Part shown: positions 10,855 through 61,545 of the stretch, in pieces
Position numbering within the stretch: position 1 is the first letter of the stretch
Layout: each line of letters starts with the position of its first letter
Assembly (NCBI RefSeq): GCF_002854065.1
Contig: NZ_CP024147.1
DNA: 64,000 bases
Origin: Escherichia coli
Lineage (GTDB): Bacteria; Pseudomonadota; Gammaproteobacteria; Enterobacterales; Enterobacteriaceae
Strand: one strand, 5' to 3'
Notes under the pieces: generated by a model
What the model saw: only the letters and a program-made list of their open reading frames with translations
What the model was told of the DNA's origin: nothing
Databases searched by the model: none
Position numbers and translations under genes: made by a program

Positions 10855-10950
10855 TTATTCTCTTTCTGAATATAAAAATGAACCCTCAACGCTTCCCTCA
10901 ATGTTTGGGGAGCCATGCGGGTTCAATCATACACGGGAAGCGAGGCGCTT
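10855..10950 (-). ncRNA. sroE: Candidate SroE-type small RNA / structured element in the ispG-hisS spacer
   Basis: 110-bp spacer between ispG stop and hisS start contains a perfect 8-bp-stem hairpin (gggaagcg-cct-cgcttccc on the minus strand) and other structure; an sRNA called SroE is reported at this position in K-12 (recollection). Ends not determinable from sequence. Confidence 0.4.
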
Positions 10951-10962
10951 CCCATCACGTTA

Positions 10963-12081
10963 TTATTTTTCGACCTGCTGAACGTCAATTCGACGCGCTT
11001 CGTCCAGCTGACTGGCTTTCGCACGAATGCGTGCTTCCAGCTGGTCGATCATATCGTTGTTGTCCAGACGGTCTTTGCGCACGCCATCTTCATAGAGGCC
11101 GCTTTTCTTGTTGCCGCCGGTGACGCCGAGTGTAGAAACCAGCGCCTCACCCGGGCCATTCACCACGCAGCCGATAATCGAAACGTCCATCGGAGTGATG
11201 ATATCTTCCAGGCGTTGCTCCAGCGCGTTAACCGTACCGATAACATCAAACTCCTGACGCGAACAGGTCGGACAGGCGATGAAGTTGATACCTCGCGAAC
11301 GGATACGAAGCGATTTCAAAATATCGAAACCGACTTTGATCTCTTCGACCGGATCGGCCGCCAGTGATACGCGCAGCGTGTCGCCGATGCCTTCAGACAG
11401 CAGCAAACCTAAACCAATGGCGGATTTTACTGCCCCGCTGCGCGCGCCACCCGCTTCGGTGATCCCCAGATGCAGCGGCTGATCGATTTGTTTTGCCAGC
11501 AAACGATAAGACTCAACAGCGAGGAAGACGTCAGACGCTTTCACGCTGACTTTGAACTGATCGAAGTTCAGGCGATCGAGATGATCAACATGACGCATGG
11601 CGGATTCCAGCAACGCCTGCGGCGTCGGTTCGCCATACTTTTCTTGCAGATCTTTTTCCAGCGATCCGGCGTTAACGCCAATACGGATCGGAATGTTTTT
11701 ATCGCGCGCACAGTCAACCACCATGCGAATACGCTCTTCATTACCGATATTGCCAGGATTAATACGCAGACAATCGACGCCGTATTCCGCTACTTTCAGC
11801 GCAATGCGATAGTCGAAGTGGATGTCAGCCACCAGCGGCACGTTAACCTGCTGTTTGATGAGTTTGAACGCTTCTGCCGCGTCCATCGTCGGTACAGATA
11901 CACGGACGATATCAGCGCCAACGCGTTCCAGCGCCTTGATTTGATTGACCGTTGCTTCGACGTCTGTCGTACGCGTATTGGTCATGGACTGTACGGCGAT
12001 GGGAGCACCATCGCCAATCGGCACATTCCCAACGTAAATACGTGTTGATTTTCTACGTTGAATTGGAGCCTGGTTATGCAT
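10963..12081 (-). CDS. ispG: 4-hydroxy-3-methylbut-2-enyl diphosphate synthase IspG (GcpE)
   Basis: ORF track 372 aa, [39 protein letters not shown].. ; MEP-pathway enzyme. Confidence 0.95.
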
Positions 12082-13405: not shown

Positions 13406-14560
13406 TCAGACCGCTTTAATGTCGATGGCTTCACCCTGCATCCGTTTACGCAGGGTACGTTTCGTACGGTCGATAACATCGCCCGCCAACTGACCACAGG
13501 CAGCATCGATATCATCACCACGCGTTTTACGCACAATAGTGGTGAAACCGTAGCTCATCAGCACTTTTGAGAAACGGTCGATACGGCTGTTCGAACTGCG
13601 TCCATACGGTGCGCCCGGGAACGGGTTCCACGGGATCAGGTTGATCTTACACGGCGTATCTTTCAGCAGTTCCGCCAGTTGGTGCGCGTGTTCAGTGCCG
13701 TCGTTAACGTGGTCAAGCATCACGTATTCAATAGTGACTCGGCCCTGATTGGCGTTGGATTTCTCCAGATAACGGCGCACCGCAGCAAGGAACGTTTCGA
13801 TATTGTACTTTTTGTTGATCGGCACAATTTCGTCACGAATTTCGTCGTTCGGCGCGTGCAGGGAAATTGCCAGCGCAACATCGATCATATCGCCCAGTTT
13901 ATCCAGCGCCGGAACTACACCGGAAGTGGAAAGCGTCACGCGACGTTTAGACAGACCAAAACCGAAATCATCAAGCATGATTTCCATCGCCGGAACGACG
14001 TTGTTCAGGTTGAGCAGCGGCTCGCCCATGCCCATCATCACTACGTTAGTGATCGGACGCTGACCGGTGACTTTTGCTGCGCCGACGATTTTCGCCGCAC
14101 GCCACACCTGGCCAATAATTTCCGATACCCGCAGGTTGCGGTTAAAGCCCTGCTGGGCGGTGGAACAGAATTTACACTCCAGCGCACACCCCACCTGCGA
14201 AGAGACGCAGAGCGTAGCGCGGTCGTCTTCCGGGATGTACACCGTTTCGACACGCTGGTCACCCACGGCAATCGCCCATTTAATGGTGCCGTCAGATGAA
14301 CGCTGTTCTTCAACCACTTCCGGTGCGCGGATCTCCGCCACCTCTTTCAGTTTGCCGCGCAACACTTTGTTGATGTCAGTCATCTCATCAAAGTTGTCGC
14401 AGCAATAGTGATACATCCACTTCATCACCTGATCGGCGCGGAAGGGTTTTTCACCTAAATCTTTAAAAAACTCCCGCATCTGCTGACGATTGAGATCCAG
14501 CAGGTTGATTTTTCCATCTTTGGTGGTGACGTTTTCAGGTGTGACTAATTGTTCAGACAT
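13406..14560 (-). CDS. rlmN: 23S rRNA / tRNA adenine-C2 methyltransferase RlmN (radical SAM)
   Basis: ORF track 384 aa, ATG; radical-SAM cysteine motif CALECKFC; strong hairpin (ttacgccacggt..accgtggcgtaa) immediately downstream of the stop. Confidence 0.95.
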
Positions 14561-14709
14561 ATGCTATTCCGGCCTCGTTATTACACGTTATGGCCCCTGG
14601 AGGGTTGAAAAAAGAAACGCCCCGGTGAGCGGCTGCTCGTCCGGGGGCGCTGCATTGTACAAATTCTGGCGCACGGATGCCACGTTTGCACGCGGCATTT
14701 ACGAAATTA

Positions 14710-15141
14710 TTAACGGGTGCGCGGGCACACTTCGCCTTCGCCGAAGAAATAAGCGATTTCGCGAGCGGCAGATTCGACGGAATCAGAACCGTGGGTACCA
14801 TTTTCGGTCAGGCTGTCAGCGTAATCAGCGCGCAGAGTACCGGCCAGTGCGTTTGCCGGATTGGTCGCGCCCAGCAGATCGCGGTGACGCTGAACGGCGT
14901 TTTCACCTTCCAGCACGGAAACCACGATCGGGCCAGAGGTCATGAATTCAACCAGACCATCAAAGAACGGTTTTCCATCGTGTTCAGCATAAAAGCCACG
15001 AGCCTGTTCAACGGTCAGGTGCAGCATTTTGGTGCCGACAATTTTGAACCCTGCAGCTTCAAAGCGCGCAAAGATATTACCAATGACGTTTTTTGCTACC
15101 GCGTTCGGTTTGATAATGGAAAAAGTACGTTCAATAGCCAT
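14710..15141 (-). CDS. ndk: Nucleoside diphosphate kinase
   Basis: ORF track frame 14710-15210; conserved Ndk N-terminus [15 protein letters not shown] begins at the internal ATG (15139-15141), 143 aa. Confidence 0.95.
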
Positions 15142-15288
15142 TTTTACCTCTGTAAAGTATTCGTTGTTGTCTGTACCTGCGTACGAGATGGCGCGGATTA
15201 TAAAGAGCAACAGGGCCGTTGACTATTGATGAAGGTAACATTTTTTTAAAATAAACCTAGTTTAAGCAACAATCAGGGACAAAACAGA

Positions 15289-17601
15289 CTATTGCATGAC
15301 AAATTTCACTGTCGCGATTTGCCCTACGTCATCCATCACCAGCAATTGATAATCACCTTTATCCGTCAAATGCAGGGTCACGTTGCGCCCGCGTTCAGTT
15401 AACGGTTCGCCGTTCAGAAACCACCAGCGTTCACCTGCCCCTCCACTTGATTGCAACGGCAAAGTCGCTTCCGCTGCGCCCGGTAAACGTTTAATAATCT
15501 CGCCATCGCGAACGCCTGTCAGCTGCAGCGGGAGCTGGGCATCGTGACCGTATGGCGGGCAAATTGTCGAGGCCGGTGGTAAGCGCACAGCGCGACGTTC
15601 TGATGCGGGCAACCAGGGTTCCAGCGGTAGCGGCCAGACATTTATCATTTCTTGTCGCGCTTGCGGGCAATCAGCGGCAACACGTTTGCCATTTTCATCC
15701 AGCCAGATGGGGAAACGAATGCCATTAATGCCTTCCTGCTCCGGCAGTAATAGAGTTGGCGGCTGACTCCCGTCCAGCAGCCAGGTTGCCAGGCGGCGGC
15801 GACAGTTACCGTCACCTTCCGGCAAAGACTGTCCGCCCGGCCAGCAAATAACGCCACGAGTGACTGAGTTCGGGCGCGGGTCTTCCGGCAGATTCGCACT
15901 GCGCGACAGTAAAATATTATTAACCTGATTCAACAGCGGTACAGCACTGGCAAAGCCAAACTGACCAACAACCGGCGTGCCATCCGGTCTGCCAGTCCAG
16001 ATCCCAATGACATAGCGAGCATTAACCCCAATCGCCCAGGCGTCACGATAGCCATAGCTGGTGCCCGTTTTCCATGCCAGTGGAGCGACGCGCGGCAAGG
16101 CACCATCCGGCAAGGGTTGCGCTTCATCAGCCATAATCCGGCGAATGATCCACGCAGCCCCCGACGACATTAAAGGCCGTTCAAGCAGCGGATCGTCAGG
16201 CTGTAAGCGCAATTTGCCTGCCTTGCCGTGGCGAGCAAACGCGGTATACGCTGCCGCCATATCTTCCAGTTTTGCACCAGCACCGCCGAGAATGAGCGAA
16301 AGATTGGGCGCAGCGCCGTTGGGCAGATACAACGGCAATCCAACATTGCGTAATTTTGCCGCAAACCGTTTCGGTCCATAGGCTTCCAGCACCTGCACAG
16401 CAGGTAAATTCAGCGAGCGCACCAGCGCCTCGCTCATGCTGATCGGGCCATGAAAACCGCTATCAAAGTTACCTGGTCGATAATCACCGGTGCGCCGGGG
16501 GACGTCTTGCAGCAGTGATGCCGGGTGGATCAAGCCTTCATCCAGCGCCAGACCATAAACAAACGGTTTGAGCACCGATCCTGGCGATCGGATCGCATTG
16601 ACCATATCAACATGACCAAAGCGTGAATCATCGTTGAGATCTACCGATCCCACCCAGCCGCGAACACGCATATCGGTATGATCAACCACGATCATCGCCA
16701 GTGAGCTGCGCGGTGGTAAACGTCCTTTCCAGTTTTGCGCCAGTTCTTCCAGACGTCGTTGAAGACCGGCATCCAGCGTAGTAACGATTTTGTCGCTTTT
16801 GCTTTTACCGAGCATCATGCGCGAAAACAGCGGTGCAAGTTGCGGCATTTGTCGGGGTGCCAGCCAGATGGGTTCTTCCCTTGACTCTTTTACCTGCTCA
16901 CGGGACCACACACCTTGCACGGCCATCCGTTCGAGCACTTTATTACGCGCGGCTTCGGCACGCTCCGGCCAACGATCCGGGCGCAGTCGGCTGGGCGCTT
17001 GCGGTAACACCGCCAGCATTGCCGCCTCGGAATAGCTTAAATTCGCAGGCGACTTTCCGAGATAAGCCCAACTTGCCGCACCGATCCCCTGCAACGTACC
17101 GCCAAACGGAGCGCGGTTAAGATACAAGGTCAGAATTTCACGCTTAGACAGATGCCATTCCAGTTGCAACGCGCGCCAGAGCTGGCGAATTTTGCCGCCA
17201 AATGTTTTGGGGTGAGGATCAAGCAGACGAGCAACCTGCATAGTGAGCGTGCTGCCACCGGAAATAACCCGTCCCGAAGTGAGATCTTGCCATGCTGCGC
17301 GCGCCACCGAGAATGGATTCACCCCCGGATGCTTCCAGAACCAGCGATCTTCATAATTGATCAGCGCTTCAAGGTAACGTGGAGAAACATCTTCGATTGT
17401 TACCGGATAACGCCAGATGCCGTCAGCATCGGCGAAGCGCCAGAGCGGCGTACCATCCTGCGCCACGACCACTCGTGCGGGATTGACTTCATGCAGCGGT
17501 AGAGGCCAGAGTTTATCTGCTCCCCACGCTGCAAGAAAAAGGAGAAATGGCGCAGCTGCCAGCGTTATCCAGCAGCCGCGTTTGGTTAACAAGCGAGGCA
17601 T
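15289..17601 (-). CDS. pbpC: Penicillin-binding protein 1C (bifunctional glycosyltransferase/transpeptidase)
   Basis: ORF track 770 aa, ATG; adjacent (1 bp) to yfhM stop, operonic. Confidence 0.95.
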   Translation of the reverse strand: MPRLLTKRGCWITLAAAPFLLFLAAWGADKLWPLPLHEVNPARVVVAQDGTPLWRFADADGIWRYPVTIEDVSPRYLEALINYEDRWFWKHPGVNPFSVARAAWQDLTSGRVISGGSTLTMQVARLLDPHPKTFGGKIRQLWRALQLEWHLSKREILTLYLNRAPFGGTLQGIGAASWAYLGKSPANLSYSEAAMLAVLPQAPSRLRPDRWPERAEAARNKVLERMAVQGVWSREQVKESREEPIWLAPRQMPQLAPLFSRMMLGKSKSDKIVTTLDAGLQRRLEELAQNWKGRLPPRSSLAMIVVDHTDMRVRGWVGSVDLNDDSRFGHVDMVNAIRSPGSVLKPFVYGLALDEGLIHPASLLQDVPRRTGDYRPGNFDSGFHGPISMSEALVRSLNLPAVQVLEAYGPKRFAAKLRNVGLPLYLPNGAAPNLSLILGGAGAKLEDMAAAYTAFARHGKAGKLRLQPDDPLLERPLMSSGAAWIIRRIMADEAQPLPDGALPRVAPLAWKTGTSYGYRDAWAIGVNARYVIGIWTGRPDGTPVVGQFGFASAVPLLNQVNNILLSRSANLPEDPRPNSVTRGVICWPGGQSLPEGDGNCRRRLATWLLDGSQPPTLLLPEQEGINGIRFPIWLDENGKRVAADCPQARQEMINVWPLPLEPWLPASERRAVRLPPASTICPPYGHDAQLPLQLTGVRDGEIIKRLPGAAEATLPLQSSGGAGERWWFLNGEPLTERGRNVTLHLTDKGDYQLLVMDDVGQIATVKFVMQ

Positions 17602-20600
17602 TTACGGTCTGACAATCAGCAAATCTTCAGCCGCGCCGGTCGCCCGCCATTGGGGAACATACATTGATTCCACCATCGGTTGCGGTACCTGATACGTTCC
17701 CGGCGTCACCGCCCGCGCCAGATACACCAGCGTTACCGGTTGGTATTCATCAACGGCAACCGCCGCCACAAAGCGATCGTCACGGAACTCAATGTGCTTA
17801 GTACTCGCCTGCTGCATCTGGTTCAGTAAGTTCTGCACTTCGCCACCACTTTGCTCCAGGCTGGCGCTACCGTTCGCCAGATTCTGGTTTTCCAGTTCCA
17901 GACCCGCAGGCAGCAGATCCACGACTAACGCATCCGGCACGCTGTTACTGGCTTTTACCTGCAACCAGACCAGCACCAGATCGCCGCTACGTAACGAGTC
18001 CAGCGATTTGCTCTTACCATCAGTACCAAGAATATGACGCTCGATTTGCAGCACATTGTTCGCCGGTAAAGGTGCGGATTGCGGATAACCGCTGGCATCC
18101 ACACGCAGCCATAACGGCTGATCGCCACTGTTGGTCACCTGCAAGGTAGCAAGTTGATCGCTATTCAGATTGCTGTTTTGCGCTTTCTCGCCTGTCAGCG
18201 GCTCAGCTGAGAAAGAGGTTTGCGCCTGCCATTTACCCGGTAAATCCTGAATCGTACGGGCAGCCAGGAACAACGCGTTACTTTCCTGCGTCGATAGCCA
18301 GCGTTCACCAAACGCCTGCTGCGAAAGTGTGTTCAGCAAAGTGTACTGCTCATCGGGTAGCAGTTTATTTTCTTCCAGCAAGGAGAGCATCAACGCGTTG
18401 TCGCGCAGTGGACTACCGTAATCACCCAGCCATATCCGCTCATCACTATTTCTCGGCGTTTTCAGCGCCAGCGCAATCGCTTCTTCACCACGCGTCGCAT
18501 CACCCATGGTTTTCAGCGCAACGCCAAGTTGCAGCAGCGGTAATCCAGACGCAGCATCTGCACGATGCTCCCAGATTTCACGCAGCGCACCCAGTGGTGC
18601 TTTTTGCTGACGGGCCAGCACCAGCGCAGCGTAAGACTGTACGGCGAATTTACTGGCTTTGAGATTATCCGCGTACGGGATCGACATCATGCCTGGATCT
18701 TGTAAATAGCGCAGCAGACGCTCATTACCCCGGTTAATGACGTCTGTCGGCACGCTGTAACCCTGTTCGCCTGCGCGGACCAGGAAATCCATCACGTAAG
18801 CCGTCAGCCAGTACTCTTCGTCACCGTTTTTATCCCACAGCGCAAAGCCGCCGTTATCACGTTGCATTTGCAGCAAACGGGAAATGCCGATATCGACCGA
18901 TGCACGGCGTTTCTCATCACTGTCGCCTTTGATGCCCAACGCCTGCAGTTGGGCTGCGTTGGTATAAAGTGACGGGAACAGGCCGCTGGCGGTTTGCTCA
19001 AGACAGCCGTACGGATACGCTTTTAACTCTTTGATATAACGTGCGATGTTCAGCGGTGGTTTGCCGCTCAACAACAATTGCCCTTCCAGCGTAACAGGCG
19101 AGAAGTTTTGCAATCCATCCGCCGGAATCGCCCATGTCTCACCAGGCTGCAACGCCGTACCGTAATTAACCGTTTGTGCCGGGAACGCTGGACGGACGCC
19201 GATTTTCCACTGCTTATGCTGATCGGCAACGGTTTCACCCGGTAACGCTAACCCGCTAATGGTGGCCTGAATTTCTCCATCGCCATAACCCGGCAATGCT
19301 CGCACCGGGATAAACAGCGTAGTACGCACACCTGGCGCTAATTCAACGGCTGCGGGTGAATCGCTGACCAGTTCAAGCAAACCACTGGCGGTCAGGGCAA
19401 CGTTCAGTTTTTGCGGTTTATCGGTAAGATTAGTGATATCCAGCGTCAGACGCGAGGTATCGCCACTCGCCATAAAGCGCGGCATGTTCAGTTCAGCAAT
19501 CACCGGTGCGGCAACTATCACTTTGCTTTCGTTGCTACCGAAGTCATCTGCCGTCCAGGCTTGCGCCATGACGCGCAATTCACCGTTAAAATCGCCAATC
19601 GGCAGTGTAACCGAGCCTTCGCCCTGTTCGTTGAGCGTTACCGGCAGCGCCTGCTGCGCGACAATATTGACGTGATTGACCGGCGGTTTACCACCACGTT
19701 TCAGCTCATCACCATCGCCACCGAAACGCAGAGCTGCCAGACGCCCCTGACCTTCAATAACCTGACCGTAAATATCGTAAATGTCTGCGCCATAGCGTTT
19801 CTGACCAAAGAACGCCTGCCACGGATCTGGCGTGACGTAGTCAGTAATATTCAGCACACCACTATCAACGGCAGACACCAGCACATTCACCTGTTTAGGC
19901 TTCTCGCCATTTTTAGTGCTGGCTTTAATTTTCACGGTTAATGGTTGATTGGGACGCATTTTTGCTGGTGTTTCCAGCGCCAGATCGAGGCGACGGTTTT
20001 CATCACCAAGCGGCAGATGCAACACACCAACCGCGCGTTTTGGCGTCGCGGAGCGAGATTTATCGCCAGGACGCACCACCAGCGTACTCAAATAAAGATC
20101 ATGACGATTCCAGGTTTTATCGACCGGAATCGTCAGATCCAGCCCTTGAGCCGGAACATCAATCTCTTGCCACCACAGCGGCCCTTCACTGGACTCGACC
20201 ATCGCATAACCTTTACCCGCCGTTGGCGCGGCAATATGCAACTTAATGGTATCGCCAGGGCGATAACTGGCTTTATCCAGTTTCAGCGTGACACGGTCGG
20301 GTCGCACGGCACCGCTTCCGTCGCTGTTGTCCTGCCAGCTATAGCCAGCCCAGAAACGCACACTACTGACCGCTTCATTCGGCGCTTTGACTTCCAGACG
20401 ATAAGCGCCCCACTCTACCGGAAAACTGACCTTGCCGGTTTCGTCCGCTTTCAGATCCAGAGTTTGTTCATTTTCGATCAGATCTTTTTGATCAAACTGT
20501 GACTGCCAGCCTTCATCTTCTGACCAGTTCCAGTAGTAATCGCGGCGTTCGCGAATCAGGCGCACCTGCAAGCCCGACACGGCTTTTTTCACGCCTTGCG

Positions 20601-22563
20601 CATCGCTATAAACGATGTCAAAAGCGGCGTTACTGCCCTCATCAACAATGGGCTGTTTCACCGTGCTGTCAGTGCGATAATCGTAAACCGATTTCGAGGC
20701 GAACTGCGGACGGAGCCCCGGCAATGCATCGGCAGGCCAGATAGCCTGCTCAGCGCGGCGCGTCACCGGGCGACCGCCCGATTCCAGCAAACTGCCCTGG
20801 AAAATAACCTGCAATGGGGAATGCGTTTCCTTCCACTGGCTTTCTGTAGAAACTTCGCCGCGCCCTTTATCGTCCAGCGTCAACTGAACTTCATCCAGCG
20901 TGCGGGAAAGGTTTTCGGCAGCTATATCGCCGAATTCAAAACCAGGTAAGGCTGACACAGCCTCACGCAGTGGGCGCAGGAAAAGTTGCCCTTGCAAAGT
21001 ATTACCATTAGCAGGCGCACCGTACAGGTAGTATCCCACCACGGAGAATTTCACTTCATCATTCGGCGTAAGCGGGGTTTTCTCACCGGTCAGATTCAGC
21101 GCCATACGCTCTGGCATAAAATCTTCGACGTGGAAATCCCACATCCGATACTGGTTATCGCCCGTGTTAGCGCGAATATGCCACATACCGGTTGCCGCAT
21201 TGCTATCGAGTGGCCAGGTAAAGTGGTAGAGGCCATTTTCCGGCTGACTAACGACGCTCCTGAGTACCTGCCCATCGGGTTTAATCACGTCTAACTTGAT
21301 GGGTTGATTGGGCAACGCTTTACCGTCTGCATCACGCAGCAAACCATTGAGGATTACCGTTTCACCCGGGCGATAAAGATCGCGCGGGCCAAACATGAAA
21401 AACTGTTTGCTATAGCCTGGCGCACCTGCAATGTTAAATTCTGCTAAGTCCAGCGCCGGAAGTTTTAAATCGAGTAGCGTTGTCTGACCGTCTTTACGTG
21501 CCAGCAGTAATGCCGCATTTTTATCATTTTCCAGCTGCACATGCCCCTGAGCGTCACTGGTTGCCTGAGTCAGAGTCTGCCCTTTCTCATTTAATAAAGA
21601 GACTTCAATTCCTTGCTGGGCCGCGCCGTTTTCCAGACTTTGGGTAAAGATATCCAGACGATTGTGATAACGGTGAGCTGAAACGCCGATATCACTTAAC
21701 GTAAACAGCGTCGCGGGATTACTGTAATCGTAACGTCCAGCCTGATTCATCACAGCCAGATACACGCCCGCCTGCTGAAGCGGTTTGATATCGCCCAGCG
21801 GCAGCAATAATTTTTCACGGGTGTTACGCGCAGGATTGAGATCAAACCGTCCGGTGTAGACCAGATCCGCCATCTGCAGCAGTTTGTCTGACTGCCAGTT
21901 CGCCAGCGAATTGCGGTATTCCCATTGGCTAATGAATGCTGGCAGAGATTCTGGCTTAACGCGGAAGAAGTTAACATCGACATTATTAACGTTGAGCGCC
22001 ATTACCGGCAGCCCTTCAACGACTTTACCAGGCAGCAGCGAACCACGGCTGGAAAAACCGACACTGGGTTGGATGTCGCGGGTAGTTATAGTTTTTTCGT
22101 AATCTTTACTGAAGGTTGCGTTGTTGAGTGCTTTGACCTCCTTGCCAATTGTAACGATCAAATCACGTTTCGGTTCGAGGTGGCGTAAACGCAGCTCTTT
22201 AAGATTATCTGACAGCTCCCAGGCACCATCCACTTTGCCGCTTTTTTTATCGACGACATGAATAACGCGTGAGAAATCCTGATCCGGGTCGAGAGGGATG
22301 GAGAACGTCAGCACCAGCGTGGCTGCACCATCAAGTTGGACTTCAGAGAGATCCAGCAATGTCAGCGCCTTACCGGCACTCTGTTGTGCCAGTTTTTGTC
22401 GCTCTGGCGCGGAGAGTTTTGCTGAACTCGCGTTTTCTGAAGAGGCCGCTTTAGTAACTTCAGAAGGCGCATCTTTTTTCACCGCTGTTGGCGCGTTATC
22501 GTTGTTGTCGCACCCTGCCAGCGCCAGCATTAGCATGCAGGCGGCTACGCGTAACTTTTTCAT
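17602..22563 (-). CDS. yfhM: Alpha-2-macroglobulin family lipoprotein YfhM
   Basis: ORF track 1653 aa, ATG; lipobox LALAGC; thioester motif CLEQ present (..AYPYGCLEQTASGL..). Confidence 0.95.
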   Translation of the reverse strand: MKKLRVAACMLMLALAGCDNNDNAPTAVKKDAPSEVTKAASSENASSAKLSAPERQKLAQQSAGKALTLLDLSEVQLDGAATLVLTFSIPLDPDQDFSRVIHVVDKKSGKVDGAWELSDNLKELRLRHLEPKRDLIVTIGKEVKALNNATFSKDYEKTITTRDIQPSVGFSSRGSLLPGKVVEGLPVMALNVNNVDVNFFRVKPESLPAFISQWEYRNSLANWQSDKLLQMADLVYTGRFDLNPARNTREKLLLPLGDIKPLQQAGVYLAVMNQAGRYDYSNPATLFTLSDIGVSAHRYHNRLDIFTQSLENGAAQQGIEVSLLNEKGQTLTQATSDAQGHVQLENDKNAALLLARKDGQTTLLDLKLPALDLAEFNIAGAPGYSKQFFMFGPRDLYRPGETVILNGLLRDADGKALPNQPIKLDVIKPDGQVLRSVVSQPENGLYHFTWPLDSNAATGMWHIRANTGDNQYRMWDFHVEDFMPERMALNLTGEKTPLTPNDEVKFSVVGYYLYGAPANGNTLQGQLFLRPLREAVSALPGFEFGDIAAENLSRTLDEVQLTLDDKGRGEVSTESQWKETHSPLQVIFQGSLLESGGRPVTRRAEQAIWPADALPGLRPQFASKSVYDYRTDSTVKQPIVDEGSNAAFDIVYSDAQGVKKAVSGLQVRLIRERRDYYWNWSEDEGWQSQFDQKDLIENEQTLDLKADETGKVSFPVEWGAYRLEVKAPNEAVSSVRFWAGYSWQDNSDGSGAVRPDRVTLKLDKASYRPGDTIKLHIAAPTAGKGYAMVESSEGPLWWQEIDVPAQGLDLTIPVDKTWNRHDLYLSTLVVRPGDKSRSATPKRAVGVLHLPLGDENRRLDLALETPAKMRPNQPLTVKIKASTKNGEKPKQVNVLVSAVDSGVLNITDYVTPDPWQAFFGQKRYGADIYDIYGQVIEGQGRLAALRFGGDGDELKRGGKPPVNHVNIVAQQALPVTLNEQGEGSVTLPIGDFNGELRVMAQAWTADDFGSNESKVIVAAPVIAELNMPRFMASGDTSRLTLDITNLTDKPQKLNVALTASGLLELVSDSPAAVELAPGVRTTLFIPVRALPGYGDGEIQATISGLALPGETVADQHKQWKIGVRPAFPAQTVNYGTALQPGETWAIPADGLQNFSPVTLEGQLLLSGKPPLNIARYIKELKAYPYGCLEQTASGLFPSLYTNAAQLQALGIKGDSDEKRRASVDIGISRLLQMQRDNGGFALWDKNGDEEYWLTAYVMDFLVRAGEQGYSVPTDVINRGNERLLRYLQDPGMMSIPYADNLKASKFAVQSYAALVLARQQKAPLGALREIWEHRADAASGLPLLQLGVALKTMGDATRGEEAIALALKTPRNSDERIWLGDYGSPLRDNALMLSLLEENKLLPDEQYTLLNTLSQQAFGERWLSTQESNALFLAARTIQDLPGKWQAQTSFSAEPLTGEKAQNSNLNSDQLATLQVTNSGDQPLWLRVDASGYPQSAPLPANNVLQIERHILGTDGKSKSLDSLRSGDLVLVWLQVKASNSVPDALVVDLLPAGLELENQNLANGSASLEQSGGEVQNLLNQMQQASTKHIEFRDDRFVAAVAVDEYQPVTLVYLARAVTPGTYQVPQPMVESMYVPQWRATGAAEDLLIVRP

Positions 22564-22769
22564 TTTTCATCCCTGCCACAATGGCCCGTTAGCAACGTCG
22601 AATAATTATTATGCGTGAGAATTTACGTTATGTAATTCAGTATCACGCCCATACAATCCGAATTTTAGTGAGAATTGTGGCTCAGACAGCCAAATCAGCC
22701 TCTTTTGCTTGTCGCTTTTCACTAAACATCCGACAATTTAGCCTAACCCCGGCAAAAATGGAGATGCCT

Positions 22770-23615
22770 ATGTCCACGACATGGTTTGTAGGAGCCGACT
22801 GGCTCGCCGAACATATTGATGACCCGGAAATTCAGATTATCGATGCCCGCATGGCGTCGCCTGGACAGGAAGATCGTAACGTTGCTCAGGAGTATCTGAA
22901 TGGACATATTCCCGGCGCAGTGTTTTTTGATATCGAAGCGCTTTCTGATCACACTTCCCTGCTTCCGCACATGCTGCCGCGCCCGGAAACGTTCGCCGTG
23001 GCGATGCGTGAATTAGGCGTTAACCAGGATAAGCACCTGATTGTCTATGACGAAGGTAATCTTTTCTCAGCCCCACGAGCATGGTGGATGCTGCGCACCT
23101 TTGGTGTAGAGAAAGTGTCGATTCTGGGGGGTGGACTTGCAGGCTGGCAGCGCGATGATCTGTTGTTAGAAGAAGGTGCAGTAGAGCTGCCGGAAGGAGA
23201 GTTTAACGCCGCGTTTAATCCTGAAGCAGTGGTGAAAGTAACCGATGTGTTATTGGCAAGCCATGAAAATACGGCGCAAATTATTGATGCCCGCCCGGCT
23301 GCACGTTTTAACGCAGAAGTTGATGAACCTCGCCCAGGTTTACGTCGCGGACATATTCCCGGTGCATTGAACGTTCCGTGGACGGAACTGGTGCGCGAAG
23401 GCGAACTAAAAACGACCGATGAACTGGATGCGATATTTTTTGGTCGCGGCGTCAGCTATGACAAACCGATTATCGTCAGCTGCGGCTCTGGTGTAACAGC
23501 AGCCGTGGTTTTGTTGGCACTCGCGACGCTGGATGTGCCAAACGTGAAACTGTACGACGGCGCATGGAGTGAATGGGGCGCGCGGGCAGATTTACCGGTT
23601 GAGCCATTGAAATAA
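22770..23615 (+). CDS. sseA: 3-mercaptopyruvate sulfurtransferase SseA (rhodanese)
   Basis: ORF track frame 22611-23615; conserved start MSTTWFVGADW at ATG 22770 (281 aa); catalytic-cysteine loop SCGSGVTAA. Confidence 0.93.
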   Translation: MSTTWFVGADWLAEHIDDPEIQIIDARMASPGQEDRNVAQEYLNGHIPGAVFFDIEALSDHTSLLPHMLPRPETFAVAMRELGVNQDKHLIVYDEGNLFSAPRAWWMLRTFGVEKVSILGGGLAGWQRDDLLLEEGAVELPEGEFNAAFNPEAVVKVTDVLLASHENTAQIIDARPAARFNAEVDEPRPGLRRGHIPGALNVPWTELVREGELKTTDELDAIFFGRGVSYDKPIIVSCGSGVTAAVVLLALATLDVPNVKLYDGAWSEWGARADLPVEPLK

Positions 23616-23629
23616 GCTTTTTACAGGCA

Positions 23630-23731
23630 ATAAAAAACCGCCGAATTTGGCGGTTTTTTATTGCTGGTCTGGTTCGCGGCCTTTCCAGCAGGTTGACTTG
23701 TGTTGCCGGAGCAACGCAGGCACCCCACAGT
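23630..23731 (-). ncRNA. Candidate antisense sRNA of ryfA copy 1 (TimR/RyfB-like)
   Basis: Minus-strand sigma70-like promoter (-35 TTGACA at 23761-23766, 17-bp spacer, -10 GAGTAT at 23738-23743); predicted 5' end carries the reverse complement of caggcaccccacagtg (23717-23732), which recurs at 23879-23894 in the ryfA leader; 3' end at the bidirectional terminator. Ends approximate. Confidence 0.45.
23632..23660. terminator. Bidirectional rho-independent terminator (sseA on plus; candidate antisense sRNA on minus)
   Basis: aaaaaaccgccgaatttggcggtttttta: GC stem aaccgcc/ggcggtt flanked by an A run and a T run. Confidence 0.8.
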
Positions 23732-23865
23732 GTTGAAATACTCTCTTTTATGCCTGGCTGTGTCAAGATAATAAACAGAGTAATTATTCAAACATGAGAG
23801 TATTATTCTTAATGGCCCTTTTCGCCGTCTCGCAAACGGGCGCTGGCTTTAGGAAAGGATGTTCC

Positions 23866-23961
23866 ATGACCGTAAATACAGGCACCCCACAGTGCTTGCT
23901 ATCGCGGCAATATCGCCAGTGGTGCTGTCGTGATGCGGTCTTCGCATGGACCGCACAATGA
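23866..23961 (+). CDS. Leader ORF (31 codons) with strong SD, translationally coupled to the downstream toxin-like ORF
   Basis: AGGAAAGGA 6 nt upstream of ATG; MTVNTGTPQCLLSRQYRQWCCRDAVFAWTAQ; its TGA stop overlaps the ATG of the next ORF (caATGA). Codons 5-10 coincide with the 16-nt antisense target. Coding status is inferred. Confidence 0.4.
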   Translation: MTVNTGTPQCLLSRQYRQWCCRDAVFAWTAQ

Positions 23962-24083
23962 AGATACGGTGCTTCTGTATCGTACTTATTGTTTCTGGTG
24001 CGCTGTTAACCGAGGTAAATAATAACCTGAGTCTCTCCGGCAACAATTTACTGGTGGTTAACAACCTTCAGAACAGCAGGTAA
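23958..24083 (+). CDS. Small hydrophobic toxin-like protein (41 aa), TimP/RyfA-type candidate
   Basis: MKIRCFCIVLIVSGALLTEVNNNLSLSGNNLLVVNNLQNSR; no own SD, start overlaps leader stop; identical amino-acid sequence in copy 2 with a single synonymous difference, whereas flanking DNA differs at many positions. Confidence 0.5.
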   Translation: MKIRCFCIVLIVSGALLTEVNNNLSLSGNNLLVVNNLQNSR

Positions 24084-24113
24084 GCCCGAATGCCGCCCTT
24101 TGGGGCGGCATAT

Positions 24114-24197
24114 TTAGATTATCCGATTCTGTTTAAAGTCACGCAAAAAACCACCCCAGCGACGTTCATAGAATGGCGCAATATGTTCGATATTAAA
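24114..24197 (-). pseudogene. Detached duplicate of the sseB 3' end (last ~25 codons plus stop)
   Basis: Minus-strand translation gives ..IEHIAPFYERRWGGFLRDFKQNRII*, identical to the C-terminus of the intact sseB at 24796-24880; no upstream coding continuation. Confidence 0.65.
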
Positions 24198-24311
24198 ATG
24201 ACCTGGCTTATTAGTCCGAATTCAGACAAATATAAACAAATCCCGCTCAATATTAAAAATACTAACCGGTAAAAGATATTACTTAAACATGTAAATTCAC
24301 TTTCTTTAAGC

Positions 24312-24415
24312 AACAAAAAACCGCCAAAATCAGGCGGTTATTTGTTGCCGGTTTGGTTCGCGGCCTCTCCAGCAGATTGACTTGTGTTGCATGAGCAACG
24401 CAGGTGCTTCACAGC
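24312..24415 (-). ncRNA. Candidate antisense sRNA of ryfA copy 2 (TimR/RyfB-like)
   Basis: Minus-strand promoter -35 TTGACA (24445-24450), 17-bp spacer, -10 GAATAT (24422-24427); 5' region complementary to caggtgcttcacagc (24401-24415), matching the copy-2 leader site caggtgtttcacagc (24560-24574) with one G-U wobble; terminator hairpin at 24318-24345. Confidence 0.45.
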
Positions 24416-24546
24416 AGAGCAATATTCGCCAGCAACTCTCTTTTTGTCAAGCAAAAGAGAGTAATTATTGTTTATTTAGCGTATTATCGACACCGGCCCT
24501 TTCCGCCGTCTCGCAAACGGGCGCTGGCTTTAGGAAAGGATGTTCC

Positions 24547-24642
24547 GTGGCCGTAAATGCAGGTGTTTCACAGCGCTTGCTATCGCGGCAATATCGCCAG
24601 TGGTGCTGTCGTGATGCGGTCTTCGCATGGACCGCACAATGA
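24547..24642 (+). CDS. Leader ORF of copy 2 (GTG start), coupled to the toxin-like ORF
   Basis: Same SD AGGAAAGGA; GTG instead of ATG; five amino-acid differences in the first 10 codons, all inside the antisense target; stop overlaps the next ATG. Confidence 0.35.
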   Translation: MAVNAGVSQRLLSRQYRQWCCRDAVFAWTAQ

Positions 24643-24764
24643 AGATACGGTGCTTTTGTATCGTACTTATTGTTTCTGGTGCGCTGTTAACCGAGGTAAA
24701 TAATAACCTGAGTCTCTCCGGCAACAATTTACTGGTGGTTAACAACCTTCAGAACAGCAGGTAA
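24639..24764 (+). CDS. Small hydrophobic toxin-like protein (41 aa), copy 2
   Basis: Same protein as copy 1 (MKIRCFCIVLIVSGALL..), one synonymous change (TTC to TTT). Confidence 0.5.
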   Translation: MKIRCFCIVLIVSGALLTEVNNNLSLSGNNLLVVNNLQNSR

Positions 24765-24795
24765 GCCCGAATGCCGCCCTTTGGGGCGGCATATT

Positions 24796-25572
24796 TTAGA
24801 TTATCCGGTTCTGTTTAAAGTCACGCAAAAAACCACCCCAACGACGTTCATAGAATGGCGCAATATGTTCGGTAATAAAGTGGCTAATTCCTTTTTCCCC
24901 TTTTTTCACCTGACAAATATCGATTGGTTCATCGCCAGGTAATGTATCGGTCGCTACACTTCCCGCCGCCTGAATAATTTCTTCGATATCACCATCGGCT
25001 TCAATGCCAATAAGTAAATTAGGCTGTGCCTCTTCGTTCTCTTTAATTGAACATATAAAAGCACGCTTCACCGGCTTAATAGTTTTAAATAAGGTGGTGA
25101 GTGAATCAATCATTTGTGCTGGCGGCTCTGCGACTTCCGATAATATTAGCGATTCACCGCCTTCCAGTACTTCCTGGCTACTCAGCGGATTCCCTTCTTC
25201 ACCAATCAACAAACTGATTTCACGCGGCATAAATTCTTTACCGGTTGGCAGTTTGGCATTAAGGAAGAGCGTTTCGCCAAGGGTCATCTCAAACAATGTG
25301 CGAACGGGCATTACTACAAATGCCTGTTCGTCTTCAACCGCCTGTTGAAGTGCTTCTAACGAGGTAAAAAAAGGAATGACGCTGGTGCCGTCTTCTTTTT
25401 CCCAATGCTGTAAATCAAGCGCACTATCTTCAACCACAGCCTCGCCCTGCGCCGCCGTACCAGGCACCCAGACGGTGGATCCCAGTAGAGTACGGAAAAA
25501 GGCCGGGCGGTGCGCCGGTTCGGTTGCTGCTTTTTCCAGCAGGTCTTCAAGTTCGTTTTTTGTTTCGGACAT
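24796..25572 (-). CDS. sseB: Protein SseB (enhanced serine sensitivity)
   Basis: ORF track frame 24796-25581; conserved start MSETKNELEDLLEKAATEP at ATG 25570-25572 (258 aa). Confidence 0.9.
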   Translation of the reverse strand: MSETKNELEDLLEKAATEPAHRPAFFRTLLGSTVWVPGTAAQGEAVVEDSALDLQHWEKEDGTSVIPFFTSLEALQQAVEDEQAFVVMPVRTLFEMTLGETLFLNAKLPTGKEFMPREISLLIGEEGNPLSSQEVLEGGESLILSEVAEPPAQMIDSLTTLFKTIKPVKRAFICSIKENEEAQPNLLIGIEADGDIEEIIQAAGSVATDTLPGDEPIDICQVKKGEKGISHFITEHIAPFYERRWGGFLRDFKQNRII

Positions 25573-32052: not shown

Positions 32053-32163
32053 TGCTCTATAAACTCCGTACATCACTCAATGCAAGGAACCAGGCTACCG
32101 GCTGGATGTACGACCGTGTTTACGGAGTATTTAGCACTCCGGCCTGATTCTGAATTCTTTTTA

Positions 32164-61360: not shown

Positions 61361-61545
61361 CAACAAAGCCGGGAATTACCCGGCTTTGTTATGGAATAAG
61401 GCGGTGCCTAACTCGACGTTTCGCCCGATGGTTGATATAGCTACGCTGATATCAGAAGTTGGACGGCAGGCACCTTGTTGTGCGTCATTCGAATTTTATG
61501 TAGCACGTCCCGAAGGGGCTGACATAAGTCGGTGAATGAGCCACT
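61361..61545 (-). ncRNA. glmY: Small RNA GlmY
   Basis: Minus-strand sequence AGTGGCTCATTCACCGACTTATGTCAGCCCCTTCGGGACGTGC...AAAGCCGGGTAATTCCCGGCTTTGTTG matches my recollection of GlmY (about 184 nt); terminator hairpin at 61365-61387 plus U-rich tail; sits 58 bp upstream of glrK. Confidence 0.85.

What the first reader, a model, noticed from the sequence alone, without database searches (positions are those of the whole stretch)
15289..22563. Alpha-2-macroglobulin (intact CLEQ thioester) operonic with PBP1c
yfhM encodes a lipoprotein with the CLEQ thioester motif and is separated by 0 bp from pbpC. The pairing is a known conserved periplasmic module thought to trap proteases and repair peptidoglycan. 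It is intact here and flanked by the ndk terminator region, so presumably functional.
Basis: established knowledge. Interest (0 to 1): 0.25.

Follow-up and report, generated by a model that had tools for sequence, protein, structure and literature searches.

The report
E. coli yfhM-pbpC operon, intact
This is the ordinary, well-studied E. coli gene pair for a periplasmic protease trap (alpha-2-macroglobulin, YfhM/ECAM) and the cell-wall synthase PBP1c; it is intact here, present in almost every E. coli genome, and not a new finding.

Summary
Window 17602-22563 (-) is an uninterrupted 1653-aa yfhM. It has a lipobox (LAGC, Cys18, Asp19), an unchanged bait region, and the thioester motif CLEQ at aa 1187-1190. 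Window 15289-17601 (-) is an uninterrupted 770-aa pbpC. The two genes join as TAA-ATG with no spacer.

Pfam finds the full bacterial macroglobulin domain set. PDB entries for E. coli ECAM (4rtd, 4ziq, 5a42) match along the whole length. NCBIfam scores PbpC well above its equivalog cut-off.

The layout is identical in K-12, and 5423 of 5426 complete E. coli genomes hold most of the locus. Differences from K-12 are mostly synonymous.

An independent scan of species genomes found a PbpC-like gene directly downstream of a PYGCLEQT-type macroglobulin gene in 52 of 72 informative loci, across many phyla. This confirms the published pairing.

One detail is wrong. ndk lies downstream of pbpC, and the 147-nt spacer holds an ndk promoter-like site, not a terminator.

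The "trap proteases, repair wall" partnership is still a literature hypothesis. Novelty: already known. Interest: low.

Side notes: PBP1c has Gln where PBP1b has catalytic Glu290, and ryfA/timP is duplicated next door.

The parts
17602..22563 (-). yfhM CDS: alpha-2-macroglobulin (ECAM), 1653 aa plus stop
   Evidence: ORF list and translation without internal stop. Pfam finds bMG1, A2M_bMG2, bMG3, MG2, bMG5, bMG6, A2M_BRD, A2M, TED_complement, CUB_A2MG and bMG10. PDB 4rtd/4ziq/5a42 match at E = 0 over the full length. It has 14 aa differences from K-12. RefSeq annotates the 100%-identical strain as 'yfhM: alpha2-macroglobulin'.
22510..22563 (-). Signal peptide and lipobox (aa 1-18: MKKLRVAACMLMLALAGC); Cys18 is the predicted lipidated residue, followed by Asp19
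   Evidence: Read directly from the translation. Asp at +2 is the classical inner-membrane retention (Lol-avoidance) signal (established knowledge). The literature places ECAM at the inner membrane (PMC4498604).
19690..19797 (-). Bait region (aa 923-958), the protease-sensitive disordered loop
   Evidence: Residue numbering comes from PMC4498604: Arg923-Leu942 are disordered after elastase cleavage, and Arg956 contacts Met1634. R923, L942 and R956 sit at those positions in the alignment. No aa differences from K-12 fall in this span.
18733..19038 (-). Pfam TED_complement match (aa 1176-1277), the N-terminal part of the thioester domain
   Evidence: PF07678, E = 5.7e-08, above the gathering score.
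18994..19005 (-). Thioester motif Cys1187-Leu-Glu-Gln1190
   Evidence: Regex on the translation. Cys1187 and Gln1190 are the thioester residues in ECAM (PMC4498604).
17650..18051 (-). C-terminal MG domain (bMG10, aa 1505-1638), containing the RDDR and E-S-M-Y (Met1634) motifs that shield the thioester
   Evidence: Pfam PF17973. The motifs are read in the translation and their role comes from PMC4498604.
17599..17604 (-). Gene junction TAAATG: yfhM stop directly followed by the pbpC start, with no Shine-Dalgarno-like purine run in the 30 nt upstream
   Evidence: upstream sequence GCTGAAGATTTGCTGATTGTCAGACCGTAA. The coordinates of the junction are the same in K-12. Translational coupling is an inference.
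15289..17601 (-). pbpC CDS: class A penicillin-binding protein PBP1c, 770 aa plus stop
   Evidence: NCBIfam equivalog NF008414 scores 1568.6 bits (cut-off 1121) and TIGR02073 PBP_1c scores 919 bits (cut-off 494). It has 5 aa differences from K-12.
16924..17421 (-). GT51 glycosyltransferase domain (aa 61-226): motif 1 E84-DRWFWKHPG, motif 2 GGSTLTMQ, motif 3 GKIRQ (Gln140 where PBP1b has Glu290)
   Evidence: Pfam PF00912, E = 3.6e-52. Motifs. Alignments to Aquifex PBP1a (2oqo) and E. coli PBP1b.
16045..16614 (-). Transpeptidase domain (aa 330-519) with S342-VLK, S396-LN and K511-TG
   Evidence: Pfam PF00905; motifs.
15301..15543 (-). BiPBP_C C-terminal domain (aa 687-767), seen here in PBP1c but not in the PBP1a/1b chains that the protein matches
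   Evidence: Pfam PF06832, E = 5.2e-17.
22564..22769 (.). yfhM-sseA divergent intergenic region. It holds a weak sigma-70-like site for yfhM at 22636-22608 (-) and the GGGA Shine-Dalgarno-like sequence before the yfhM ATG
   Evidence: The region is 100% identical to K-12. The promoter is a consensus match only, and the number of sites in the region is no higher than in shuffles.
15142..15288 (-). pbpC-ndk spacer. It holds an ndk promoter-like site TAGTCA-17-TATAAT at 15225-15197 and no terminator-like hairpin
   Evidence: The RNA fold is no more stable than shuffles (z = 0.01).

Best explanation
The region is the chromosomal yfhM-pbpC gene pair of Escherichia coli, intact and in its usual place between sseA and ndk.

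Shown here: YfhM has every sequence hallmark of the type I bacterial alpha-2-macroglobulin ECAM. These are the signal peptide with lipobox, Asp at +2 for inner-membrane retention, the macroglobulin domains, an unchanged bait loop, the CLEQ thioester in the TED, and the C-terminal MG domain with RDDR/ESMY. PbpC has a GT51 glycosyltransferase domain, a transpeptidase domain with SxxK/SxN/KTG, and the BiPBP_C domain.

Known from published biochemistry and structures of the near-identical K-12 protein: a protease that reaches the periplasm cuts the bait loop. The cut releases the C-terminal MG domain from the TED, exposes the Cys1187-Gln1190 thioester, and the protease becomes covalently bound and trapped.

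Inferred: the two genes are co-transcribed from a promoter upstream of yfhM. pbpC translation is probably coupled to termination of yfhM translation, because the junction is TAA-ATG and no Shine-Dalgarno sequence is present.

Hypothesis from the literature, not shown: PBP1c supplies extra peptidoglycan synthesis to repair the wall where proteases and other agents have breached the envelope.
For: - Exact ORFs with no stops, and a 0-nt junction.
- Full Pfam domain set for YfhM, and Transgly, Transpeptidase and BiPBP_C for PbpC.
- NCBIfam PbpC equivalog at 1568.6 bits against a cut-off of 1121.
- PDB ECAM entries 4rtd, 4ziq and 5a42 at E = 0 over the full length, and Salmonella A2M 4u48 at 3042 bits.
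- CLEQ at 1187-1190, the lipobox, and the GT and TP motifs. The RDDR/ESMY and bait residues sit at the positions published for ECAM.
- Identical gene order and lengths in K-12 and in the RefSeq annotation of a 100%-identical strain.
- 5423 of 5426 complete E. coli genomes hold at least 80% of the 7.8-kb query in one place, always on the chromosome.
- Codon differences from K-12 are 57 synonymous to 14 non-synonymous in yfhM and 38 to 5 in pbpC, which indicates purifying selection.
- Cross-phylum pairing: 52 of 72 informative loci, and 50 of 61 where the A2M is full-length YfhM-like, have a PbpC-like gene immediately downstream on the same strand.
- The literature states the pairing, the inner-membrane anchoring and the thioester trapping (PMC4498604; PMC3328433; PMC3735191; PMC7554673).
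Against: - Nothing argues against the identity of the genes.
- The functional partnership is less secure. PBP1c has no known role in peptidoglycan synthesis under laboratory conditions and cannot replace PBP1a and PBP1b (PMC7554673).
- The first phenotype reported for PBP1c needed overproduction together with LdtD (PMC6131605).
- 20 of the 72 informative loci lack a PbpC-like gene next to the A2M gene, so the pairing is frequent but not obligatory.
- PBP1c carries Gln140 at the position of the catalytic Glu290 of PBP1b.
- The upstream promoter is only a weak consensus match, and consensus hits in this region are no more frequent than in shuffled sequence.
- No transcript data were available here.
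Confidence: 0.93

Rival explanations
1. The genes are adjacent and co-expressed but functionally independent. YfhM is a stand-alone periplasmic protease inhibitor. PBP1c is an auxiliary glycosyltransferase used under other conditions, for example with L,D-transpeptidases. On this reading the linkage reflects shared regulation or joint horizontal transfer rather than a trap-and-repair partnership.
For: PBP1c's only reported phenotype involves LdtD-dependent labelling and does not involve YfhM (PMC6131605). 20 of 72 informative A2M loci lack a neighbouring PbpC-like gene. No published interaction between the two proteins turned up in the literature searches.
Against: Same-strand, immediately downstream pairing occurs in 72-82% of loci across Proteobacteria, Bacteroidota, Verrucomicrobiota, Planctomycetota, Poribacteria, Synergistota and others. 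That is far more than chance adjacency would give. Selection of this kind usually points to a joint function. The 0-nt junction also ties the expression of the two proteins together.
Confidence: 0.25
2. YfhM is the cognate lipoprotein regulator of PBP1c, analogous to LpoA and LpoB for PBP1a and PBP1b. Protease-triggered rearrangement of YfhM would switch on PBP1c locally.
For: This is inference only. PBP1a and PBP1b need lipoprotein activators, whereas none is known for PBP1c (PMC7554673). Both proteins are anchored at the inner membrane. The genetic coupling is tight and conserved. YfhM undergoes a large conformational change on cleavage.
Against: There is no experimental hint in the papers read. 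Published work (Schiffer and Holtje 1999, not read here; only cited) is recalled as reporting PBP1c transglycosylase activity in vitro without YfhM. Some A2M loci lack pbpC.
Confidence: 0.08
3. The locus in this strain is a silent or decaying remnant: intact reading frames by chance, with no function.
For: There is no known laboratory phenotype for pbpC, and the promoter consensus is weak.
Against: 7.3 kb of open reading frame has no stop. Substitutions against K-12 are strongly biased towards synonymous changes (57:14 and 38:5). All catalytic and structural motifs are kept. The locus is retained in 5423 of 5426 genomes.
Confidence: 0.02

Closest known systems
E. coli K-12 YfhM / ECAM (b2520; PDB 4rtd, 4ziq, 5a42), a type I bacterial alpha-2-macroglobulin
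   Same: Same length (1653 aa), same locus, same domain order, and the same lipobox, bait region, CLEQ at 1187-1190 and RDDR/ESMY motifs.
   Different: 14 amino-acid substitutions (V52A, V66A, A171S, K501N, I617L, R804P, V969A, A1275V, S1385P, Q1455P, V1472A, S1477T, M1488V, I1588T). None falls in the bait loop 923-958 or the CLEQ motif.
E. coli K-12 PBP1c (pbpC, b2519), a class A penicillin-binding protein
   Same: Same length (770 aa) and the same 0-nt junction with yfhM. It keeps the GT51, transpeptidase and BiPBP_C domains and all motifs, and scores above the NCBIfam equivalog cut-off.
   Different: 5 substitutions (T273V, S336A, S500G, S680I, A701E), none in a catalytic motif.
Salmonella enterica alpha-2-macroglobulin (SaA2M; PDB 4u48, 4u59, 4u4j)
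   Same: Full-length homologue (3042 bits, aa 18-1653 aligned). Its native structure shows the thioester shielded by the C-terminal MG domain (PMC4498604).
   Different: An orthologue from another genus, with a lower score than the E. coli entries.
Type II bacterial macroglobulins (P. aeruginosa MagD; E. coli YfaS class)
   Same: Same superfamily fold, periplasmic and associated with the inner membrane (PMC3735191).
   Different: MagD lacks both the lipobox Cys and the CXEQ thioester. It sits in a six-gene mag operon, not next to pbpC. The window protein has both cysteines and the pbpC neighbour, so it is type I, not type II.
Human alpha-2-macroglobulin, complement C3 and CD109
   Same: They share MG domains and a TED with a CXEQ thioester, and activation by bait cleavage.
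   Different: Sequence similarity is only weak and local (E around 1e-06). The bacterial protein is a monomeric, lipid-anchored form with two extra N-terminal MG domains.
E. coli PBP1b (mrcB) and PBP1a, the major class A PBPs
   Same: The GT51 and transpeptidase architecture. Glu84 of PBP1c aligns with Glu233 of PBP1b.
   Different: PBP1c has Gln140 where PBP1b has the catalytic Glu290 (GKIRQ against RKANE). It carries a BiPBP_C domain. It cannot replace PBP1a and PBP1b (PMC7554673).

Membership tests
Type I bacterial alpha-2-macroglobulin (ECAM/YfhM class) | N-terminal signal peptide with a lipobox cysteine | tested here: met
   The N-terminus is MKKLRVAACMLMLALAG-C18, with L-A-G-C fitting the lipobox. 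The class definition is in PMC3735191.
Type I bacterial alpha-2-macroglobulin (ECAM/YfhM class) | A series of macroglobulin (MG) domains, including the two extra N-terminal bacterial ones, plus CUB and a C-terminal MG domain | tested here: met
   Pfam finds bMG1, A2M_bMG2, bMG3, MG2, bMG5, bMG6, A2M, CUB_A2MG and bMG10, all above their gathering scores.
Type I bacterial alpha-2-macroglobulin (ECAM/YfhM class) | Bait-region domain with a protease-sensitive loop | tested here: met
   PF07703 A2M_BRD matches aa 759-905. Residues 923-958 are identical to K-12 ECAM. Actual cleavage is not testable here.
Type I bacterial alpha-2-macroglobulin (ECAM/YfhM class) | Thioester domain with a CXEQ motif | tested here: met
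   CLEQ is at aa 1187-1190, inside the PF07678 TED match.
Type I bacterial alpha-2-macroglobulin (ECAM/YfhM class) | A formed internal thioester that reacts with methylamine or with proteases | not testable with these tools
   This is a biochemical property. It has been shown for K-12 ECAM (PMC3328433).
Type I bacterial alpha-2-macroglobulin (ECAM/YfhM class) | Gene juxtaposed to pbpC | tested here: met
   The spacer is 0 nt and the genes are on the same strand. The pairing recurs in 52 of 72 informative loci elsewhere.
PBP1c (class A penicillin-binding protein, TIGR02073 / NF008414) | Whole-protein score above the curated equivalog cut-off | tested here: met
   NF008414 scores 1568.6 bits against a cut-off of 1121, and TIGR02073 scores 919 against 494.2. 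The PBP1a and PBP1b models score below their cut-offs.
PBP1c (class A penicillin-binding protein, TIGR02073 / NF008414) | GT51 glycosyltransferase domain with the motif-1 catalytic Glu | tested here: met
   PF00912 matches at E = 3.6e-52. E84 in EDRWFWKHPG aligns with E233 of PBP1b.
PBP1c (class A penicillin-binding protein, TIGR02073 / NF008414) | Canonical GT51 motif 3, RKxxE (second Glu). This defines canonical GT51 enzymes, not PBP1c specifically. | tested here: not met
   The motif reads GKIRQ, so Gln140 aligns with Glu290 of PBP1b. The same holds in K-12 and in 36 of 52 A2M-linked PbpC homologues. It is therefore a trait of the PBP1c clade, not a defect of this copy.
PBP1c (class A penicillin-binding protein, TIGR02073 / NF008414) | Transpeptidase domain with SxxK, SxN and KTG | tested here: met
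   S342-VLK, S396-LN and K511-TG lie within the PF00905 match.
PBP1c (class A penicillin-binding protein, TIGR02073 / NF008414) | C-terminal BiPBP_C domain | tested here: met
   PF06832 matches aa 687-767 at E = 5.2e-17.
PBP1c (class A penicillin-binding protein, TIGR02073 / NF008414) | Moenomycin-sensitive transglycosylase activity and restricted beta-lactam binding | not testable with these tools
   These are biochemical properties attributed to Schiffer and Holtje 1999, which is cited. That paper was not read here.
yfhM-pbpC operon (single transcription unit) | Co-transcription of both genes | not testable with these tools
   Supported only indirectly: same strand, a 0-nt junction, and only one weak terminator-like pattern on the coding strand inside yfhM, at a frequency no higher than in shuffles. 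Transcript data are needed.

The most novel reading that the evidence does not exclude
YfhM may not only be a protease trap. It could be the missing lipoprotein partner or activator of PBP1c, an inner-membrane counterpart of LpoA and LpoB. Bait cleavage and the resulting conformational change would then locally switch on a PBP1c whose glycosyltransferase site is atypical (Gln140 in place of the second catalytic Glu). That would couple damage sensing directly to wall repair. The evidence here does not exclude this: the pairing is tight across phyla, the junction suggests translational coupling, and both proteins are at the inner membrane. But nothing here supports it directly either.
Probability: 0.08. 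Interest if true: 0.6.

Novelty: already known. Interest (0 to 1): 0.08.

Why it matters
For a genome scan, the finding matters mainly as a correct annotation: an intact core-genome envelope-defence locus of E. coli. The wider open question is old and remains unanswered. It asks what PBP1c is for and whether it really cooperates with the macroglobulin. This window adds no new leverage on that question beyond confirming that the pairing is strongly conserved and that both genes are under purifying selection.

Tried and rejected
- **Word-indexed protein search.** Searching with YfhM returned only close enterobacterial relatives (84% identical Citrobacter and E. fergusonii among the 120 listed). 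It was useless for a broad co-occurrence test. I replaced it with a degenerate DNA pattern for PYGCLEQT scanned over species genomes.
- **NCBIfam for YfhM.** It has no model that hits YfhM (0 families), so Pfam and PDB carried that identification.
- **Budd et al. 2004 (PMC463071).** The primary source for the pairing is not held in the library, so it is cited only through papers that cite it.
- **Terminator after pbpC.** I looked for the 'ndk terminator' of the finding. The scan found no terminator-like site in 15142-15288, and the fold is no better than shuffles. The only terminator-like site near ndk is downstream of it, at 14631-14618 (-).
- **Promoter and terminator counts.** Counts across 14400-23800 are no higher than in shuffled sequence (9 against 7.4, and 13 against 12.3). 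No promoter claim rests on them.
- **Possible decay.** I considered a frameshift or a lost motif, and rejected both.
- **Type II (MagD/YfaS-like) macroglobulin.** I considered this class and rejected it, because both diagnostic cysteines and the pbpC neighbour are present.
- **PBP1c structure.** No solved structure was found by sequence. The nearest match is PBP1a, PDB 4oon. I ran no structure prediction because it would not change the verdict.
Full report

Yes, to the base. The ORF list gives 17602..22563 (-), 1653 aa, and 15289..17601 (-), 770 aa, both starting with ATG. The translations have no internal stop.

On the minus strand the junction reads ccg-TAA-ATG-cct. The stop codon of the first gene is followed at once by the start codon of the second, with a 0-nt spacer.

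The first protein begins MKKLRVAACMLMLALAGCDNND. That is a basic n-region, a hydrophobic core, and a lipobox L-A-G-C with Cys18, followed by Asp19. It contains AYPYGCLEQTASG, with CLEQ at residues 1187-1190, window 18994-19005.

**2. What the two genes are.**

- **YfhM, domains.** Pfam finds the complete bacterial macroglobulin architecture: bMG1, A2M_bMG2, bMG3, MG2, bMG5, bMG6, the bait-region domain, A2M, the TED, the CUB domain and bMG10. All score above their gathering cut-offs.
- **YfhM, structures.** The solved structures of E. coli alpha-2-macroglobulin (PDB 4rtd, 4ziq, 5a42, deposited as 'lipoprotein YfhM') match over the whole mature protein at E = 0. The Salmonella orthologue 4u48 matches at 3042 bits. 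Human A2M, C3 and CD109 appear only as weak local matches.
- **PbpC.** It has Transgly (GT51), Transpeptidase and BiPBP_C domains. It scores 1568.6 bits against the NCBIfam equivalog 'peptidoglycan glycosyltransferase PbpC' (cut-off 1121) and 919 bits against TIGR02073 PBP_1c (cut-off 494). It stays below the cut-offs of the PBP1a and PBP1b models. No PBP1c structure is found by sequence.
- **PbpC motifs.** Present are E84-DRWFWKHPG, GGSTLTMQ, S342-VLK, S396-LN and K511-TG.

**3. Where it comes from and how ordinary it is.**

The 7.8 kb around the pair matches 5425 of 5426 complete E. coli genomes. In 5423 of them one place covers at least 80% of the query, always on the chromosome. Two strains match at 100% identity: strain 100416 from stool in Gambia, and strain CUWW06 from wastewater. 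RefSeq annotates the identical strain as ndk, pbpC, yfhM (all minus strand) and sseA (plus strand).

K-12 MG1655 has the same order (b2518, b2519, b2520, b2521), the same gene lengths of 2313 and 4962 nt, and the same abutting coordinates.

| Gene | Nucleotide difference from K-12 | Amino-acid changes | Codon differences, synonymous : non-synonymous |
|---|---|---|---|
| yfhM | 1.49% | 14 | 57 : 14 |
| pbpC | 1.90% | 5 | 38 : 5 |

This is the pattern of genes under purifying selection. No substitution touches the lipobox, the bait loop (923-958), CLEQ, the RDDR or E-S-M(1634)-Y motifs, or any PbpC catalytic motif.

**4. The flanks.**

The finding says the pair is 'flanked by the ndk terminator region'. 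That is not what the sequence shows.

- ndk is 14710-15141 (-), so it lies downstream of pbpC.
- The 147-nt spacer (15142-15288) contains the best sigma-70-like match of the whole scanned region, TAGTCA-17-TATAAT at 15225-15197. It sits in the right place to be the ndk promoter.
- The spacer has no terminator-like hairpin. Folded as RNA it is no more stable than shuffled sequence (z = 0.01).
- The only terminator-like site near ndk is downstream of it, at 14631-14618 (-).

Where the yfhM-pbpC transcript ends is therefore unknown, and read-through into ndk is possible.

Upstream of yfhM, the 206-nt region shared with the divergent sseA gene is 100% identical to K-12. It has only a weak promoter-like match (ATTACA-17-CATAAT, 22636-22608) and a GGGA seven bases before the ATG. 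Promoter-like and terminator-like hits in the region are no more numerous than in shuffles, so none of these is evidence on its own.

pbpC has no Shine-Dalgarno-like purine run in the 30 nt before its ATG. Together with the TAA-ATG junction, this suggests translational coupling. That is an inference.

**5. Is the pairing conserved?**

The literature says so. [quoted passage not shown] Similar statements are in PMC3328433, PMC3735191 and PMC7554673, all tracing back to Budd et al. 2004, which the library does not hold.

I tested the pairing independently. A degenerate DNA pattern for the peptide PYGCLEQT was scanned across one genome per GTDB species.

- In 111 loci the motif lies inside a YfhM-like gene (tblastn).
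- 72 loci hold enough downstream DNA to judge.
- 52 of those 72 (72%) have a PbpC-like gene immediately downstream on the same strand. The estimated spacer runs from -70 to +758 nt.
- Among loci whose A2M aligns to the end of YfhM, the figure is 50 of 61.
- The 20 negative loci have no PbpC-like hit anywhere in the DNA held.

The positive loci include Enterobacterales, Pseudomonas, Pseudoalteromonas, Neisseriaceae, Alphaproteobacteria, Magnetococcales, Hymenobacter and other Bacteroidota, Verrucomicrobiota, Lentisphaerae, Phycisphaerales, Poribacteria, Synergistales and Myxococcales. A genome carries only a handful of class A PBP genes, so this is far beyond chance adjacency.

The sample is the first 120 hits of one motif variant. 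It is not a census.

**6. How it most likely works.**

- **Shown for the near-identical K-12 protein by others.** The thioester is real and reacts with methylamine and proteases (PMC3328433). After elastase cleavage the bait loop (Arg923-Leu942 disordered) displaces the C-terminal MG domain from the TED, using the RDDR and EXMY motifs. This exposes Cys1187-Gln1190 towards the attacking protease (PMC4498604).
- **Shown here.** Every residue named in that mechanism is present and unchanged.
- **Inferred.** Lipidation at Cys18 with inner-membrane retention through Asp19, co-transcription, and translational coupling.
- **Hypothesis only.** PBP1c repairs peptidoglycan in concert with the trap. PBP1c has no known role under laboratory conditions and cannot replace PBP1a and PBP1b. 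Its first reported phenotype required overproduction with LdtD (PMC6131605).

**7. Comparison with known systems and verdict.**

The locus meets every sequence-testable defining feature of the type I bacterial alpha-2-macroglobulin class and of PBP1c. It is not the type II (MagD-like) class, which lacks both cysteines and sits in a six-gene operon.

It is already known: a core-genome E. coli operon with solved structures. Interest is low.

**8. Things seen in passing.**

- **Gln140 in PBP1c.** PbpC has GKIRQ where canonical GT51 enzymes have RKxxE. Gln140 aligns with the catalytic Glu290 of PBP1b (E290 is called catalytic in PMC7400108) and with the RKIKE of Aquifex PBP1a. K-12 has the same residue. 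Among the 52 A2M-linked homologues, 36 have Gln and 16 have Glu. All identifiable Proteobacteria have Gln except one Halothiobacillaceae genome (L047) and one metagenome bin labelled only 'Proteobacteria' (L050), and several Lentisphaerae also have Gln. Bacteroidota, Verrucomicrobiota, Poribacteria and others have Glu. I found no paper discussing this, but the search was limited.
- **ryfA/timP duplication.** Just beyond sseA the window carries two full ryfA/timP copies (23812-24116 and 24493-24797) around an 'IS128' RNA match and a fragment of the 3' end of sseB. K-12 has one copy. Sampled genomes further down the ranking show one timP and a match span of about 590-710 nt.

Noticed in passing
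window 17182-17196 (-), PbpC aa 136-140: GT51 motif 3 reads GKIRQ instead of RKxxE. Gln140 aligns with the catalytic Glu290 of E. coli PBP1b and with RKIKE of Aquifex PBP1a. K-12 has the same residue. Among 52 PbpC-like genes next to A2M genes, 36 have Gln and 16 have Glu. All identifiable Proteobacteria have Gln except one Halothiobacillaceae genome (L047) and one bin labelled only 'Proteobacteria' (L050), and some Lentisphaerae have Gln too. Bacteroidota, Verrucomicrobiota, Poribacteria and others have Glu. This may bear on why PBP1c cannot replace PBP1a and PBP1b.
   Followed up: partly
window 23812-24797 (+): There are two complete ryfA sRNA / timP small-toxin copies (Rfam 315.7 and 313.8 bits). 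They are separated by an 'IS128' RNA match (24147-24357) and an 87-nt fragment of the 3' end of sseB. K-12 has one copy. In a spread sample of E. coli genomes, most show one timP and a match span of about 590-710 nt. Only 365 of 5425 records match at 95% identity or more. This looks like a tandem duplication of about 681 nt found in a minority of strains.
   Followed up: partly
window 22564-22769: The yfhM-sseA divergent intergenic region (206 nt) is 100% identical to K-12, while the flanking coding sequences differ by 1.4-1.9%. About 3 differences would be expected, so this is only weak evidence for constraint on regulatory sequence.
   Followed up: no
window 17602-22563, inside yfhM: PMC5493296 lists a genomic-SELEX peak for a minor sigma holoenzyme inside yfhM. 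It is a type D (intragenic) site at K-12 position 2649866, between pbpC and sseA, in the section on the extracytoplasmic-stress sigma. It could be an internal promoter for pbpC. I did not map it onto the window.
   Followed up: no
L011, L036, L039, L040, L072, L079, L106, L120 (Pseudomonas loci): In Pseudomonas species the estimated gap between the A2M gene and the PbpC-like gene is about 440-760 nt, against 0-60 nt in Enterobacterales. That leaves room for a small extra gene or a regulatory region.
   Followed up: no
window about 49912 onward, compared with L123: The window is collinear with E. coli strain 100416, with only 14 mismatches, from 22517 to 49541. It loses register at 49912, where that strain has an IS1A inserted in yphG. 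The window therefore differs from that strain there, probably by lacking the IS1.
   Followed up: no
window 61398-61545 (-), 32054-32163 (-), 10872-10963 (-), 2351-2393 (+): Other Rfam matches at gathering score are GlmY sRNA, the iscRS stability element, SroE sRNA and ES036. These are the expected features of this K-12-like chromosomal region.
   Followed up: no
window 17605-22563 (-): NCBIfam release 20 has no model that hits YfhM (0 families), although RefSeq names the protein 'alpha2-macroglobulin'.
   Followed up: no
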